This document shows, one piece after another, positions 3,451 to 55,198 of a stretch of 64,000 nucleotides of DNA. The notes below the pieces were generated by a model that worked only from the letters and a program-made list of their open reading frames with translations, was not told where the DNA came from and made no database searches. The stretch is from positions 1,912,604 through 1,976,603 of the forward strand of contig NZ_CP170094.1 in NCBI RefSeq assembly GCF_042180575.1, given 5' to 3'. Positions within the stretch are counted from its first letter, which is position 1; every line of letters begins with the position of its first letter. Origin of the DNA: Bernardetia sp. OM2101. GTDB lineage: Bacteria; Bacteroidota; Bacteroidia; Cytophagales; Bernardetiaceae. Made by a program: the position numbers and the translations under genes.

Positions 3451-3800
3451 ACCAAAATAAAATCTATTTTTCCCTTTGGATTTCTCGTTCAAGTATTTTG
3501 CTTGGACGCTCTTTTTTGTCAGCATATGCTGACGAAATAGATAGATACAAGATAGAATCTTGCACCAGTGAAGTTTAATATTTATTTTGGTATAAATTTA
3601 GAAAATTCAAAAATAGTTCAGCAAAAAATGGTTTCAAATGTACATTTGAAACCATTTTTTATGACAAGATTATACCAAAATAAAAGTTATTTTTCCCTTT
3701 ACATATTTCTCGTTCAAGTATTTTGCTTGGACGCTCTTTTTTGTCAGTATATGCTGACGAAATAGATAGATACAAGATAGAATCTTGCACCAGTAAAAGA
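3451..3800. repeat. Two direct copies of a roughly 125-bp element, each containing a perfect 16-bp palindrome GTCAGCATATGCTGAC (second copy GTCAGTATATGCTGAC)
   Basis: 3451-3580 and 3672-3800 are near-identical (ataccaaaataaaa..tttttcccttt..tctcgttcaagtattttgcttggacgctcttttttgtcag.atatgctgacgaaatagatagatacaagatagaatcttgcaccagt). Confidence 0.85.
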
Positions 3801-13477: not shown

Positions 13478-13629
13478 AAATACTCAAAATATAAATCTTT
13501 TTACAACTATTTTCAAAATCTGATTGCAGTTTTTACTTTATTTCATTTCTAATGATTCCATTTCAGTAAAATTATCAAAATTTTAAACTTCAATTTAGAA
13601 TTTCTAAAAGTCCTAATAATTAATTACAG

Positions 13630-13810
13630 GCAAATGCTAGGGCAAACGCACGAAAATAAAATGTGTGATTTTACACTCTTTTTGACCTATTTTTTTAGTT
13701 TTAAAATTCAAGCGAGGACGCTTGAATTAGACAAAAACTGGTTTAAGCGTCCTCGCTTGAACCAATTCTTAAAAAATAAAATTTCGTGCGTTTGCCTTAG
13801 GCAAATGCTG
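13630..13810. repeat. Nested palindromic element of about 180 bp in a divergent intergenic region
   Basis: Outer arms ggcaaacgcacgaaa / tttcgtgcgtttgcc plus repeated ggcaaatgc; inner hairpins ttcaagcgaggacgcttgaa and ttaagcgtcctcgcttgaa (reverse complements of each other). Confidence 0.8.
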
Positions 13811-13888
13811 TATTTAGACCAAAAACTAAATTTTATCCTTATTTTTGATATTCTGTTTAAATTGTTTTCGTTTTCTTACCTCATTCAC

Positions 13889-15133
13889 ATGTCAAAATTC
13901 TCTTTCATTGTTCCTTATCGCAACCGAGACACAAAAATAGCCAAACGCTGTTTGCTTTCTCTTCAGCATCAAAAACTCATTCAAAGAAATGATACAGACT
14001 ATGAAGTCATTTTTATAGATTATGGAAGTGATATTTCTATTTCGGATGAGTTAGAAGATTTTTGTGAAAATTTGGATAAAGTAAATTATGTTTTTAATGA
14101 AGTAAGAGGAATGTTTTGGTCACGTTCGGCTTCTATCAACAACGGCATTTATTTAGCAAAAGGAGAATATTGTATTATTGCTGATGTAGATATGATTTAT
14201 TCACCTAATTTTTTGGAAGAAGTCGATAAAAACGCAACTCAAAATACACTTTTGCATTATCAATGTTTTTATTTGAATGAAGACTTTGAGTATGATAAAT
14301 ATCAGGAAAATCATAGCTTAAATATTGAAAATCCGAATCAATTTGAAAAGAGTAGTAAAGAATCGGCTATGGGAATTGTCGTTATTCCAACAGAAAAACT
14401 AAAAAAAATAGGAGCTTTTGATGAATATTTTAGGCTTTGGGGAATAGAAGATAAAGATTTGAATAGACGATTATTGAACTATAAGTATGAGAAAAATAAA
14501 GATAAAAAGTTAGAAATGAAATGGCTCAATGCTGAAAAATCGCCTGTTTTTCATCAATGGCATCCAGCAGCAAATAATCCATTAGCACAACCAAAAGGCT
14601 GGGAAAAAATCGTAATTGACCATTATCACAATAAATATGATAAGCCAGAACTTACTATTCACACGAAAACAAATGGAATAGAAATAGGAAAAGTTTATAC
14701 AAAAGAAGAACGTCCTGCATTAAAAGTGTATGAAAGTACTCAATTAGATTCTAACCTCATTATTACTAATTATAGTTTTGAGTTTCCTATCGAAAAAGCC
14801 TATTCTTCTTTTGCAAGTCAGTTTATGAAATTAGAAAAAAACGAACCTCTTATTCTAAACCAATCCTTTTCTTTAATCGATGAAAAAGCAACCAGTAAAG
14901 CTGCAAAAGGAGTAAAGAAAATAAATACGCTTTTAGAAAAAGTAAAGGTTTCATACAGAATGACCGAACTTTTGAAACATACTTACGGAAATATAGATTT
15001 TTATCAAGTTCGTGATTTTCTATTTTATTTTATCGTCGATTTTGAGAATTTTATTGAAGATTATTATTACAAACAAGAAAATGGAAAAAATGGAAAGCCT
15101 GAAAAAATCACATTGATTTTATTCAAAAAGTAG
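13889..15133 (+). CDS. Family 2 glycosyltransferase. The start is placed at MSKFSFIVPYRNRD; the ORF-track start at 13634 runs through the palindromic element and is unlikely
   Basis: FSFIVPYRNRD N-terminus and DVDM (DxD) motif of GT2 enzymes. Confidence 0.65.
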   Translation: MSKFSFIVPYRNRDTKIAKRCLLSLQHQKLIQRNDTDYEVIFIDYGSDISISDELEDFCENLDKVNYVFNEVRGMFWSRSASINNGIYLAKGEYCIIADVDMIYSPNFLEEVDKNATQNTLLHYQCFYLNEDFEYDKYQENHSLNIENPNQFEKSSKESAMGIVVIPTEKLKKIGAFDEYFRLWGIEDKDLNRRLLNYKYEKNKDKKLEMKWLNAEKSPVFHQWHPAANNPLAQPKGWEKIVIDHYHNKYDKPELTIHTKTNGIEIGKVYTKEERPALKVYESTQLDSNLIITNYSFEFPIEKAYSSFASQFMKLEKNEPLILNQSFSLIDEKATSKAAKGVKKINTLLEKVKVSYRMTELLKHTYGNIDFYQVRDFLFYFIVDFENFIEDYYYKQENGKNGKPEKITLILFKK

Positions 15134-16463: not shown

Positions 16464-16492
16464 AAATTAATTACGAATTACGAATTACGAAT
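16464..16492. repeat. Short array of ATTACGA/TTCGTAA-type heptamers
   Basis: attacgaattacgaattacgaatt read directly; same family as 31931-32070, 55048-55198, 55560-55640 and 61620-61656. Confidence 0.8.
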
Positions 16493-16733: not shown

Positions 16734-16781
16734 GGGGATTTAGCTCAGTTGGCTAGAGCACTTCGCTAGCAGTGAAGGGGG
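16734..16781 (+). tRNA. tRNA-like 5' portion (acceptor strand, D-arm, anticodon arm) interrupted by an IS
   Basis: GGGGATT-TA-GCTCAGTTGGCTAGAGC-A-CTTCG-CTAGCAG-TGAAG gives a canonical 5' acceptor strand, D-arm and anticodon arm; followed directly by the IS left inverted repeat. Confidence 0.4.
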
Positions 16782-17957
16782 CAGTGATGTTAAGTTCTAA
16801 TTGATTTTGTATTTTTGTTTTTTTATTGACAGAATAAAATTTGGTTTATGGAATTTAGTGACTTTATCAGAAACATGGAAGATAGCCGTAGAAGTCAAGG
16901 TCAGCGTTACTCTTTTGAATCTATGATGTGGATGATTTTTTTGAGTATTGCTTGTGGCTATGAGAGTAGTCGTAAAATGGCTACTTTTTGTATTTCTTAT
17001 CAAGACGTATTTATAGATTATTTTGATTTAAAACATGGTACTCCTAGTTATGGCACTTTTCATACTTTTTTATCTTATTTAGATAGTTTATCTTTTGCAG
17101 CCTCTTTTAATACTGTTATGCTTTCTCATTCGGAATTAGAAAAAGGAGATTGGATAGCAGGAGATGGACAAACTCTATGTTCTACCGTTAGTTCTTCTCA
17201 TACAAGCAAACAAGATTATGTTAGTGTAGTGAGTTTATTTTGTCAAAAAACAGGTTTGAGTATTTTATTGAAAGATTATATGAATAAAGATAAACAAGAA
17301 TCAGAAGCTAAAATAGTTTTAGAGTTACTACTTAAGAATTTGAAAGACAAAGGCTTAATGTTTACATTGGATGCTCTACATTGCCAAAAAAAACATTAAA
17401 AAGTATTGTCGCTAGTGGAAATGACTTTACAGTTCAAGTAAAAGGAAATACTCCAAAGTTACTAGCTAGTTTAGAAACTACACTACTTACTACTACTCAT
17501 AGAGACACTCACATTATAGAAAAAAAAAGAATGGCATAAAAACAACTTGGCAATGCTACTGCTACGATTATGTGCAAAAAGTGAAAGAATGGCAGTGCAT
17601 TGAAACAATTATCGTAATTTATAAAACAGTTATTGAACCTACTAAAGTAACTCCTACTCGTCGTTATTATGTTTCAAATAAAAAACTAGAAGAGGGATTC
17701 TCAGCCAAGTCATTTAATGTAGGTATTAGAGGGCATTGGGATATTGAAAATAAAGCACACAGAAATAAAGATATTGTATTCAAACAGGATGATAACAAAG
17801 TTAAAAATAGTAAACATGCAGTAAATAGAGCTATTTTCAATACTATAGCACTCAATTTCCTAATAGATAAATATTCTGAAAATGTAATGTATAACCAAAT
17901 TTTATTTCGTACACAGTTTCAAAAAATATGCTTTAAAAAGAGAACTTAACATCACTG
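16782..17957 (+). mobile_element. ISAs1-family insertion sequence (about 1.18 kb) with 16-bp terminal inverted repeats and a 10-bp target duplication GTGAAGGGGG
   Basis: Left IR cagtgatgttaagttc (16782-16797) and right IR gaacttaacatcactg (17942-17957); gtgaaggggg repeated at 16772-16781 and 17958-17967. Confidence 0.8.
16848..17949 (+). pseudogene. ISAs1-family (H-repeat-associated) transposase, disrupted by frameshifts or stops
   Basis: N-terminal DDE_Tnp_1-assoc-like domain (..RRSQGQRYSFESMMWMIF..). The central segment ..SGNDFTVQVKGNTPKLL.. lies in another frame, and the C-terminal ..IRGHWDIENKAHRNKD.. piece in a third ORF. Confidence 0.75.
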
Positions 17958-17967
17958 GTGAAGGGGG

Positions 17968-54804: not shown

Positions 54805-55047
54805 ATGAAATTACCAGTTATAAAACAATTAGTAGAAACTCATTCGTTAGAAGACCTCAAAAAAGCTGAAATGGCTATGGAAGAAGGAGAAAACCCTACT
54901 TTTGAAGTAAAAGGCGAAGACGAAGGCGAACAATTTACACACGTAATTGCAGCCGTTTGGGTAAAAGAAAAAATGGAAAAAGATGGCGTTGATGCTCGTG
55001 CTGCAATGCGTGAATATACACAGAAAGTAAGAAATTCAATAAGTTAA
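54805..55047 (+). CDS. Small hypothetical protein (80 aa, acidic)
   Basis: ORF with reasonable codon usage; no family recognised. Confidence 0.4.
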   Translation: MKLPVIKQLVETHSLEDLKKAEMAMEEGENPTFEVKGEDEGEQFTHVIAAVWVKEKMEKDGVDARAAMREYTQKVRNSIS

Positions 55048-55198
55048 ATTACGAATTTTCAATTACGACCTGCTAAAGCAGCGCAGCTAATTACGAATTG
55101 AAATACAAAAATAAACCTAGTATATTTATCATATATAAAAACAAAAGCTTATTGAGTATTCATTATTTTACTCTCGTAATTTTTAATTCGTAATTGAT
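55048..55198. repeat. TTCGTAA-family repeat region ending in the conserved motif cgtaatttttaattcgtaattga directly before the start codon
   Basis: aattacgaattttcaattacgacctgctaaagcagcgcagctaattacgaattg ... ctcgtaatttttaattcgtaattgatATG. Confidence 0.8.

What the first reader, a model, noticed from the sequence alone, without database searches (positions are those of the whole stretch)
13630..13810. Roughly 180-bp nested palindromic element in the divergent promoter region between the HipA-like operon and a GT2 glycosyltransferase
Outer inverted arms (ggcaaacgcacgaaa / tttcgtgcgtttgcc, with ggcaaatgc repeated directly) enclose two hairpins that are reverse complements of one another (ttcaagcgaggacgcttgaa; ttaagcgtcctcgcttgaa). 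The ORF track reading through it at 13634 is almost certainly an artefact. The structure could be a MITE, a structured RNA, or a complex operator controlling both divergent genes.
Basis: seen in the sequence. Interest (0 to 1): 0.5.

Follow-up and report, generated by a model that had tools for sequence, protein, structure and literature searches.

The report
Small non-coding transposon (ISAs1-type MITE)
The 180-bp nested palindrome is a 162-bp miniature transposable element that carries the end sequences of ISAs1-family insertion sequences and sits between a 9-bp target-site duplication; it is an ordinary piece of selfish DNA, with no sign that it is a dedicated regulator or a structured RNA.

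Summary
Window 13629-13808 holds 18-nt terminal inverted repeats (TAGGGCAAACGCACGAAA / TTTCGTGCGTTTGCCTTA). They enclose two 20-nt hairpins that are reverse complements of each other. The whole is bracketed by a perfect 9-bp direct repeat, GGCAAATGC.

The best reading is a MITE of the ISAs1 family, for these reasons:
- The same termini, in the same register and with perfect 9-bp target duplications, bound two full-length insertion sequences of 1147 and 1165 bp. Both encode ISAs1-family transposases (NF033564, 323 bits for the first).
- The same termini also bound other non-coding elements of 144-170 bp: seven in Bergeyella porcorum, one on an IMG/VR contig and one in a Dysgonamonadaceae MAG.
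- A truncated copy of this very element (89% identity over 100 nt) lies at an unrelated locus on a Bernardetia sp. Wsw4-3y2 plasmid.
- The element is absent upstream of the orthologous glycosyltransferase gene in four other Bernardetia genomes. Homology to them resumes 14 bp past the right duplication.
- No Rfam family matches. Both strands fold equally well, as palindromic DNA does.

Three things are not shown: an empty site, further intact copies in the host genome, and a matching transposase in Bernardetia. I rate it a new member of a known kind, of low interest.

The parts
13629..13637 (.). Left copy of the 9-bp target-site duplication, GGCAAATGC
   Evidence: It matches 13800-13808 at 9 of 9 positions. 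It lies in the same register relative to the TIR as the perfect 9-bp duplications of five other elements with these termini.
13638..13655 (+). Left terminal inverted repeat, TAGGGCAAACGCACGAAA
   Evidence: It matches the left end of the full-length ISAs1-family IS in L025 at 17 of 18 positions and the ends of the IS in L104 at 15 of 18. It differs from the right TIR of this element at 1 of 18 positions.
13656..13706 (.). AT-rich left internal segment, 51 nt, containing a small hairpin (GTGTGATTTTACAC)
   Evidence: It is conserved in the truncated copy on the Bernardetia sp. Wsw4-3y2 plasmid (L028 6001-6100, 89% identity over 100 nt). It has no similarity to the interior of the full-length ISs.
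13707..13726 (.). Inner hairpin 1, TTCAAGCG-AGGA-CGCTTGAA
   Evidence: It is present in mutated form in L028 (TTCAATTGAGGACACTTGAA).
13742..13761 (.). Inner hairpin 2, TTTAAGCG-TCCT-CGCTTGAA, the reverse complement of hairpin 1 (19 of 20)
   Evidence: A similar solo hairpin (about 81% over 47 nt, weak) lies downstream of rplS on the Wsw4-3y2 plasmid (L029 3001-3047).
13782..13799 (-). Right terminal inverted repeat, TTTCGTGCGTTTGCCTTA (reverse complement TAAGGCAAACGCACGAAA)
13800..13808 (.). Right copy of the 9-bp target-site duplication, GGCAAATGC
   Evidence: Together with the end of the right TIR it forms the 9-bp hairpin that the terminator scan flagged at 13788-13808.
13638..13799 (.). 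The whole element: a 162-bp MITE that itself encodes no protein
   Evidence: The only ORF of 40 aa or more that crosses it is the spurious 5' extension of the glycosyltransferase gene. It has no Rfam match.

Best explanation
The feature is a 162-bp miniature inverted-repeat transposable element (MITE), a non-autonomous derivative or mimic of an ISAs1-family insertion sequence. It lies in the divergent intergenic region of Bernardetia sp. OM2101.

Mechanism, inferred from how DDE-type IS elements and their MITEs work. An ISAs1-family transposase made elsewhere binds the two 18-nt terminal inverted repeats (TAGGGCAAACGCACGAAA). It then joins the ends to a staggered cut 9 bp wide, and repair of the gaps produces the flanking duplication GGCAAATGC.

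The strong predicted fold and the nested palindrome follow from the inverted termini plus a palindromic, non-coding core. They are not evidence of an RNA or operator function.

Shown here: the anatomy, the identity of the termini and the TSD length with bona fide ISAs1 elements, the existence of other MITEs with these termini, a second truncated copy in the genus, and absence from orthologous loci.

Inferred: that the element arrived by transposition at this site, that it is mobilised in trans, and that it has no dedicated host function.
For: 1. Anatomy. 18-nt TIRs (17 of 18 complementary) are flanked by a perfect 9-bp direct repeat.

2. Full-length elements with the same termini. L025 5811-6957 is 1147 bp with TIRs TAGGTCAAACGCACGAAA / TAGGCTAAACGCATGAAA and the 9-bp TSD ATTTTTTAA. 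It encodes a 368-aa protein that hits NF033564 'ISAs1 family transposase' at 323 bits (cut-off 70) and PF13808 plus PF01609. L104 is 1165 bp, from a Cytophagales MAG, with TIR CAGGGCAAACGCATGAGA and TSD GTATGTGCA. Its transposase is P0159, which is named ISAs1 family and carries PF13808 and PF01609. A more distant ISAs1-type element, L100, ends in CAGGGCAATCGCAC.

3. Non-coding elements of 144-170 bp with the same termini. There are seven in Bergeyella porcorum CECT 9006 (L002, L003, L005, L008-L011), two of them with perfect 9-bp TSDs. L027 has TSD TCTAAATCT. L001 is from a Dysgonamonadaceae MAG.

4. In all, six independent elements show 9 of 9 TSDs in the same register.

5. The left 100 nt of this very element recur at 89% identity (E = 4e-28) at an unrelated locus on the 602-kb plasmid of Bernardetia sp. 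Wsw4-3y2, between convergent genes.

6. The element is absent upstream of the GT2 orthologue in B. litoralis DSM 6794, Wsw4-3y2, ABR2-2B and MNP-M8. Homology to these genomes starts at 13822, 14 bp after the right TSD.

7. There is no Rfam match at gathering scores, and only sub-threshold hairpin-type hits otherwise. Both strands fold about equally well.
Against: - No other copy lies in the 64-kb window.
- The genome-collection scan for perfect 12-nt cores at both ends returned no Bernardetia hit. A metagenome scan with a conserved internal 20-mer returned only chance matches. The family is therefore rare, and a high copy number, which is typical of MITEs, is not shown.
- No empty site could be recovered, because the synteny differs on both sides in every relative examined.
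- No ISAs1 element with matching termini was found in Bernardetia. The degraded ISAs1-family IS 3 kb away (16782-17957) has different termini, CAGTGATGTTAAGTTCT.
- The duplicated 9-mer GGCAAATGC matches positions 4-12 of the TIR (GGCAAACGC) at 8 of 9 positions. A random target would rarely do that, and I cannot explain it.
Confidence: 0.88

Rival explanations
1. A MITE that the host has co-opted. Sitting between two divergent promoters, its twin GC-rich hairpins, and the TIR-TSD hairpin at 13788-13808, would act as a bidirectional transcription stop or insulator, or would alter expression of the GT2 gene whose conserved promoter block begins 14 bp downstream.
For: It lies between the divergent HipA_2/DUF3037 and GT2 genes, 81 bp from the GT2 start codon and immediately upstream of the only upstream block conserved among Bernardetia (13822-13858). 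The scan flagged one terminator-like hairpin at 13788-13808, against 0.2 expected. The hairpins are stable on both strands.
Against: The hairpins are not followed by T-runs. There are no expression data. The element is absent from four relatives that keep the same GT2 promoter block. The truncated copy in Wsw4-3y2 has a decayed hairpin 1, which suggests no selection on the hairpin.
Confidence: 0.07
2. A structured non-coding RNA or cis-regulatory leader transcribed from the intergenic region.
For: The predicted structure is very stable (z = -11.6).
Against: There is no Rfam family at gathering score, and the best sub-threshold hits are generic hairpin (miRNA precursor) models. The reverse strand folds almost as well, as expected for a DNA palindrome. 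The element is not conserved at orthologous loci. Its termini are transposon ends.
Confidence: 0.02
3. A complex operator: repeated GGCAAAYGC boxes and palindromes bound by a transcription factor that controls both divergent genes.
For: There are four GGCAAAYGC boxes (13629, 13641, 13788 on the - strand, 13800) plus palindromes in a divergent promoter region.
Against: Two of the boxes are the transposon termini and the other two are the target duplication. No regulator gene is adjacent. The boxes are absent upstream of hipA-like and GT2 orthologues in relatives.
Confidence: 0.02
4. A chance local palindrome with no history of mobility.
For: Only one intact copy is known in this genus.
Against: The 18-nt termini match bona fide ISAs1 ends at 15-17 of 18 positions. 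The 9-bp duplication lies in the exact register seen in five other elements. A partial copy at 89% identity sits at an unrelated locus in a second Bernardetia. Shuffles give no such repeats.
Confidence: 0.01

Closest known systems
ISAs1-family insertion sequences (ISAs1, the H-repeat elements of E. coli, IS1358). Here the closest are the Capnocytophaga-type element in L025 and the Cytophagales element in L104.
   Same: The terminal sequence (C/T)AGG-N2-AAACGCAYGA is shared. The target duplication is 9 bp. From my own recollection of ISfinder, the family has 8-10-bp duplications and ends of the CAGGG type, which fits.
   Different: The window element is 162 bp and has no transposase gene. Beyond the 18-nt termini it has no similarity to the ISs, so it is not a simple internal-deletion derivative of either IS recovered here.
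Bacterial MITEs in general, for example the 176-429-bp MaeMITE families that PMC2779907 identifies as elements under 600 bp, flanked by inverted repeats and lacking a transposase.
   Same: It is small, carries no coding sequence of its own, has terminal inverted repeats and a target-site duplication, lies in an intergenic region and has a strongly folding palindromic sequence.
   Different: The copy number appears very low: one intact copy here and one truncated copy in a sister genome. Classical families have tens to hundreds of copies.
The 156-170-bp MITE family of Bergeyella porcorum CECT 9006 (L002, L003, L005, L008-L011), found here. I know of no published description.
   Same: The 18-19-nt termini are nearly identical (TAGGYYAAACGCACGAAAT). 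The size is similar and the TSD is 9 bp.
   Different: The internal sequence is unrelated: the Bergeyella elements are AT-rich and lack the twin GC-rich hairpins. They occur in at least seven copies in one genome.
REP/BIME-type palindromic repeats
   Same: Both are intergenic, GC-richer hairpins in an AT-rich genome. One similar solo hairpin exists in another Bernardetia (L029).
   Different: REPs have neither TIRs matching an IS nor TSDs. The hairpin motif is not repeated elsewhere in this 64-kb window or in about 50 kb of other Bernardetia DNA.

Membership tests
MITE (non-autonomous IS-derived element) | Small size (tens to a few hundred bp) and no transposase gene | tested here: met
   The element is 162 bp. 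The only ORF crossing it is the spurious upstream extension of the GT2 gene.
MITE (non-autonomous IS-derived element) | Terminal inverted repeats | tested here: met
   The TIRs are 18 nt and 17 of 18 complementary.
MITE (non-autonomous IS-derived element) | Target-site duplication of the length made by the cognate transposase | tested here: met
   GGCAAATGC flanks the element on both sides at 9 of 9. The two full-length ISs with these termini (L025, L104) and the MITEs in L009, L011 and L027 have the same 9-bp length and register.
MITE (non-autonomous IS-derived element) | Termini match those of an autonomous IS | tested here: met
   17 of 18 to the L025 left end and 15 of 18 to the L104 ends. 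Both encode ISAs1-family transposases.
MITE (non-autonomous IS-derived element) | Several copies in the host genome or lineage | tested here: inconclusive
   There is one copy in the 64-kb window. One truncated copy lies on the Wsw4-3y2 plasmid. The genome scan returned no Bernardetia hit. The OM2101 genome itself could not be retrieved.
MITE (non-autonomous IS-derived element) | Presence/absence polymorphism (an empty site in a relative) | tested here: inconclusive
   The element is absent next to the GT2 and hipA-like orthologues in the relatives examined. However, gene order differs there too, so no clean empty site exists to compare.
ISAs1 family (as the source of the termini) | The transposase of elements bearing these termini is an ISAs1-family DDE enzyme | tested here: met
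   The L025 protein scores NF033564 at 323 bits (cut-off 70), PF13808 at 85.5 bits and PF01609 at 54.3 bits. The L104 protein, P0159, is named ISAs1 family and has the same Pfam domains.
ISAs1 family (as the source of the termini) | A cognate transposase with matching termini present in the same genome (needed for current mobility) | not testable with these tools
The neighbouring degraded ISAs1-family IS (16782-17957) has different termini. No close homologue was found on Bernardetia or other Bacteroidota plasmids.
Known structured RNA family (Rfam 15) | A covariance-model score at or above the family's gathering threshold | tested here: not met
   There were 0 hits at gathering score in the whole window. 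The best sub-threshold hit was 27 bits against a cut-off of 67.5, to a miRNA hairpin model.

The most novel reading that the evidence does not exclude
Two non-ordinary readings are not excluded.

(a) The transposase chose a target that resembles its own end. The duplicated 9-mer GGCAAATGC matches TIR positions 4-12 at 8 of 9. That would point to end-like target selection in this ISAs1 clade, or to insertion into the relic of an older copy.

(b) The element marks, and may have mediated, the rearrangement that placed the hipA-like/DUF3037 pair next to the GT2 gene in this strain. Its twin-hairpin core might now insulate the two divergent promoters.
Probability: 0.1. Interest if true: 0.35.

Novelty: new member of a known kind. 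Interest (0 to 1): 0.15.

Why it matters
The main value is for annotation. The finding explains a conspicuous palindrome and removes a spurious 85-codon extension of the glycosyltransferase ORF. It also warns against reading the very strong predicted fold as an RNA gene.

It documents that ISAs1-type termini, (C/T)AGG-N2-AAACGCAYGA with a 9-bp duplication, are carried by several unrelated miniature elements in Bacteroidota: Bernardetia, Bergeyella and Dysgonamonadaceae. I found no paper in the searchable library that describes this. That is a small addition to the catalogue of MITE/IS partnerships.

The element sits exactly at a break in gene order between Bernardetia strains, so it is a candidate marker of local genome rearrangement.

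Tried and rejected
- Other copies in the window. Searches with 15-mer, 20-mer and 12-mer cores, allowing mismatches, found none.
- Rfam at gathering and at permissive thresholds. Nothing meaningful.
- Retrieving the host genome by exact protein look-up with four window proteins. None is on record.
- A metagenome scan with TTTTTAGTTTTAAAATTCAA, the internal 20-mer conserved between the two Bernardetia copies. It gave 68 loci, all matching only the AT-rich 20-mer itself or a few extra bases around it (20-36 nt in all), so they are chance hits.
- Viral-contig scans with hairpin 1, and with the Bernardetia-type end plus subterminal sequence. Both gave 0 hits.
- The search for an empty site. The GT2 orthologues in four Bernardetia genomes are next to tamB. 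The hipA-like orthologues are next to rpsO or a COX3 gene. Outside short promoter-proximal blocks the flanks cannot be aligned.
- The search for a partner transposase on plasmids by tblastn with P0159. There were 723 records, all below 60% identity, and no Bacteroidota among those listed.
- L004 (Sumerlaeia), L006 (Patescibacteria, a long perfect palindrome at a contig end) and L007 (Chitinophagaceae) matched the core pattern. They lack the TAGG/CAGG end and the 9-bp register, so I set them aside as unrelated or uncertain.
- A Persicobacter plasmid hit (L030; 34 nt, 88%). It has no partner end and was not pursued.
- Literature. No paper holds the terminal sequence in a relevant context, and none describes ISAs1-derived MITEs or insertion sequences in Bernardetia.

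Full report
**1. What is in the sequence**

- An outer inverted repeat lies at 13637-13655 / 13782-13800 (19 nt, 95% complementary).
- An inner inverted repeat lies at 13707-13726 / 13742-13761 (20 nt, 95% complementary). Each of its arms is itself an 8-bp stem with a 4-nt loop.
- A direct repeat AGGCAAATGCT lies at 13628-13638 and 13799-13809.

The 20-mer occurs nowhere else in the window with up to 3 mismatches, and never in 100 shuffles. Predicted folding is extreme on both strands: -85.9 kcal/mol (z = -11.6) on + and -76.4 (z = -10.1) on -. That near-symmetry is what a DNA palindrome gives, rather than a strand-specific RNA.

- A HipA_2 kinase (PF20613) and a DUF3037 protein are encoded on the minus strand.
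- A GT2 glycosyltransferase is encoded on the plus strand.

The ORF that starts at 13634 is a spurious extension. The identical database protein, from Bernardetia sp. OM2101, has 414 aa and so starts at the ATG at 13889. Its near-full-length relatives (95-100% query coverage) are 373-418 aa.

**2. Anatomy re-read as a transposon**

In the correct register the structure is: a 9-bp direct repeat GGCAAATGC (13629-13637), an 18-nt end TAGGGCAAACGCACGAAA (13638-13655), a 126-nt core, the inverted end TTTCGTGCGTTTGCCTTA (13782-13799), and GGCAAATGC again (13800-13808). The element proper is 162 bp.

**3. The ends are those of ISAs1-family insertion sequences**

A scan of species-representative genomes used the pattern AAACGCACGAAA, then 111-141 bases, then TTTCGTGCGTTT. 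It found these elements, all with TAGG/CAGG-N2-AAACGCACGAAA ends:
- seven non-coding elements of 156-170 bp in Bergeyella porcorum CECT 9006;
- one in a Dysgonamonadaceae MAG.

A scan of viral contigs for TAGGNNAAACGCACGAAA found a further 144-bp element (L027). More importantly, it found a full-length element, L025 5811-6957.
- It is 1147 bp, with ends TAGGTCAAACGCACGAAA and TAGGCTAAACGCATGAAA and the 9-bp duplication ATTTTTTAA.
- It has one 368-aa ORF whose stop codon lies in the right end.
- That protein hits NF033564 'ISAs1 family transposase' at 323 bits (cut-off 70) and PF13808 plus PF01609. It is 98% identical to a Capnocytophaga canimorsus ISAs1 transposase.

A 60%-identical homologue from a Cytophagales MAG (P0159, L104) sits in a 1165-bp element. 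Its ends are CAGGGCAAACGCATGAGA and its 9-bp duplication is GTATGTGCA. A distant ISAs1-type element, L100, ends in CAGGGCAATCGCAC.

Measured in one register, six independent elements have perfect 9 of 9 duplications: the window element, L009, L011, L027, L025 and L104. The window ends match the L025 left end at 17 of 18 positions and the L104 ends at 15 of 18.

**4. The same element elsewhere in the genus**

A blastn search against plasmids found the left 100 nt of the element, covering the end, the AT-rich segment, hairpin 1 and the following 11 nt. The match is 89% identical (E = 4e-28) and lies on the 602-kb plasmid of Bernardetia sp. Wsw4-3y2, between two convergent, unrelated genes. That copy is truncated and its hairpin 1 is decayed. 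It shows that the sequence is a repeat that has been at more than one locus in Bernardetia.

A weaker match on the same plasmid (about 81% over 47 nt) to the hairpin-2 region is a solo hairpin downstream of rplS.

**5. It is not a conserved regulatory feature**

In B. litoralis DSM 6794 and strains Wsw4-3y2, ABR2-2B and MNP-M8, the GT2 orthologue is divergent from tamB, and the element is absent. DNA homology to the window begins at 13822, 14 bp after the right duplication, in a short AT-rich block upstream of the gene.

The hipA-like/DUF3037 pair of the relatives lies elsewhere, next to rpsO or a COX3 gene. Only about 40 nt upstream of its start can be aligned.

No Rfam family reaches its threshold. 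The sub-threshold hits are generic hairpin models.

**6. Mechanism**

The best explanation (confidence about 0.88) is a MITE mobilised in trans by an ISAs1-family DDE transposase. The enzyme recognises the 18-nt ends and inserts them into a 9-bp staggered cut.

- Shown: the end identity, the duplication length, non-coding relatives, and multi-locus occurrence.
- Inferred: the insertion event at this site, mobilisation in trans, and the lack of a host function.

The core has no similarity to the interior of the ISs recovered here. The element is therefore not a simple deletion derivative of either. It belongs with MITEs that share only their ends with the partner IS.

**7. What remains open**

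- Copy number in the host genome is unknown, because exact-protein look-ups failed and the genome could not be read.
- No Bernardetia hit came from the genome scan. The metagenome scan returned only chance matches. The family is therefore rare.
- No empty site could be recovered, because gene order differs on both sides in every relative.
- No matching transposase was found in Bernardetia. The degraded ISAs1-family IS 3 kb away has different ends. tblastn against plasmids found nothing close.
- The duplicated 9-mer matches positions 4-12 of the end itself at 8 of 9. That is unlikely for a random target. It might reflect end-like target choice or insertion into an old relic, and I could not test either.

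**8. Comparison and verdict**

The element works like, and passes the structural tests for, a bacterial MITE with ISAs1-type ends. Two tests are inconclusive here: multi-copy status and an empty site. I found no paper describing ISAs1-derived MITEs or this terminal sequence. It is still an unsurprising new member of a well-known kind. Interest is low, at 0.15.

Noticed in passing
window 16772-17967: A degraded ISAs1-family insertion sequence lies at 16782-17957 (1176 bp), with ends CAGTGATGTTAAGTTCT and a 10-bp duplication GTGAAGGGGG. Its transposase is split into at least three ORFs. It interrupts a tRNA-like gene: removing the IS and one duplication copy lets ARAGORN call a 78-nt tRNA-Ala(agc) with an imperfect acceptor stem, whereas no tRNA is called in the intact window.
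   Followed up: yes
window 13810-13822 compared with L012, L014, L015, L016: The element sits exactly at a break in gene order. Four other Bernardetia genomes have tamB divergent from the GT2 gene, and homology to the window starts only at 13822. tamB is not in the window at all. The hipA-like/DUF3037 pair of the relatives lies at other loci, next to rpsO or COX3.
   Followed up: partly
window 13629-13637 / 13800-13808 compared with 13641-13649: The target-site duplication GGCAAATGC matches positions 4-12 of the element's own end (GGCAAACGC) at 8 of 9. With the right end it forms a 9-bp hairpin that the terminator scan flagged. The other elements of this class have AT-rich, unrelated duplications.
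   Followed up: no
L002, L003, L005, L008, L009, L010, L011 (Bergeyella porcorum CECT 9006): A separate AT-rich MITE family of 156-170 bp occurs in at least seven copies in both orientations. It has the ends TAGGYYAAACGCACGAAAT and, in two copies, perfect 9-bp duplications. I know of no description of it.
   Followed up: partly
window 55046-55100, 16470-16492 and 55177-55195; L014 3774-3812: There is another short repeat built on TTACGAATT / AATTCGTAA motifs around a GC-rich hairpin (GACCTGCTAAAGCAGCG). A 39-nt stretch of the window is 95% identical to part of the GT2 upstream region of strain Wsw4-3y2. The window also has (ACGAATT)x3 in tandem at 16470-16492.
   Followed up: no
L014 about 3660-3720 and L016 (same region): A tandem heptamer array (CAGTTAT repeated about 8 times) lies in the tamB-GT2 intergenic region of strains Wsw4-3y2 and MNP-M8. 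It is absent from the window and from the other two relatives.
   Followed up: no
L029 3001-3047 (Bernardetia sp. Wsw4-3y2 plasmid): A solo 14-bp-stem hairpin, AACTGGTTCAAGTGTCGACGCTTGAACCAGTT, lies between rplS and lpxH and resembles hairpin 2 of the element with its flanks (about 81%). Homology of the truncated copy in L028 ends at about the point where this hairpin's homology begins (window 13736-13737), which hints that the element's core may be a mosaic.
   Followed up: partly
L006 4185-4401 (Patescibacteria MAG contig end): A long perfect inverted repeat lies at the very end of a 4.4-kb contig. It looks like an assembly fold-back rather than a biological element.
   Followed up: no
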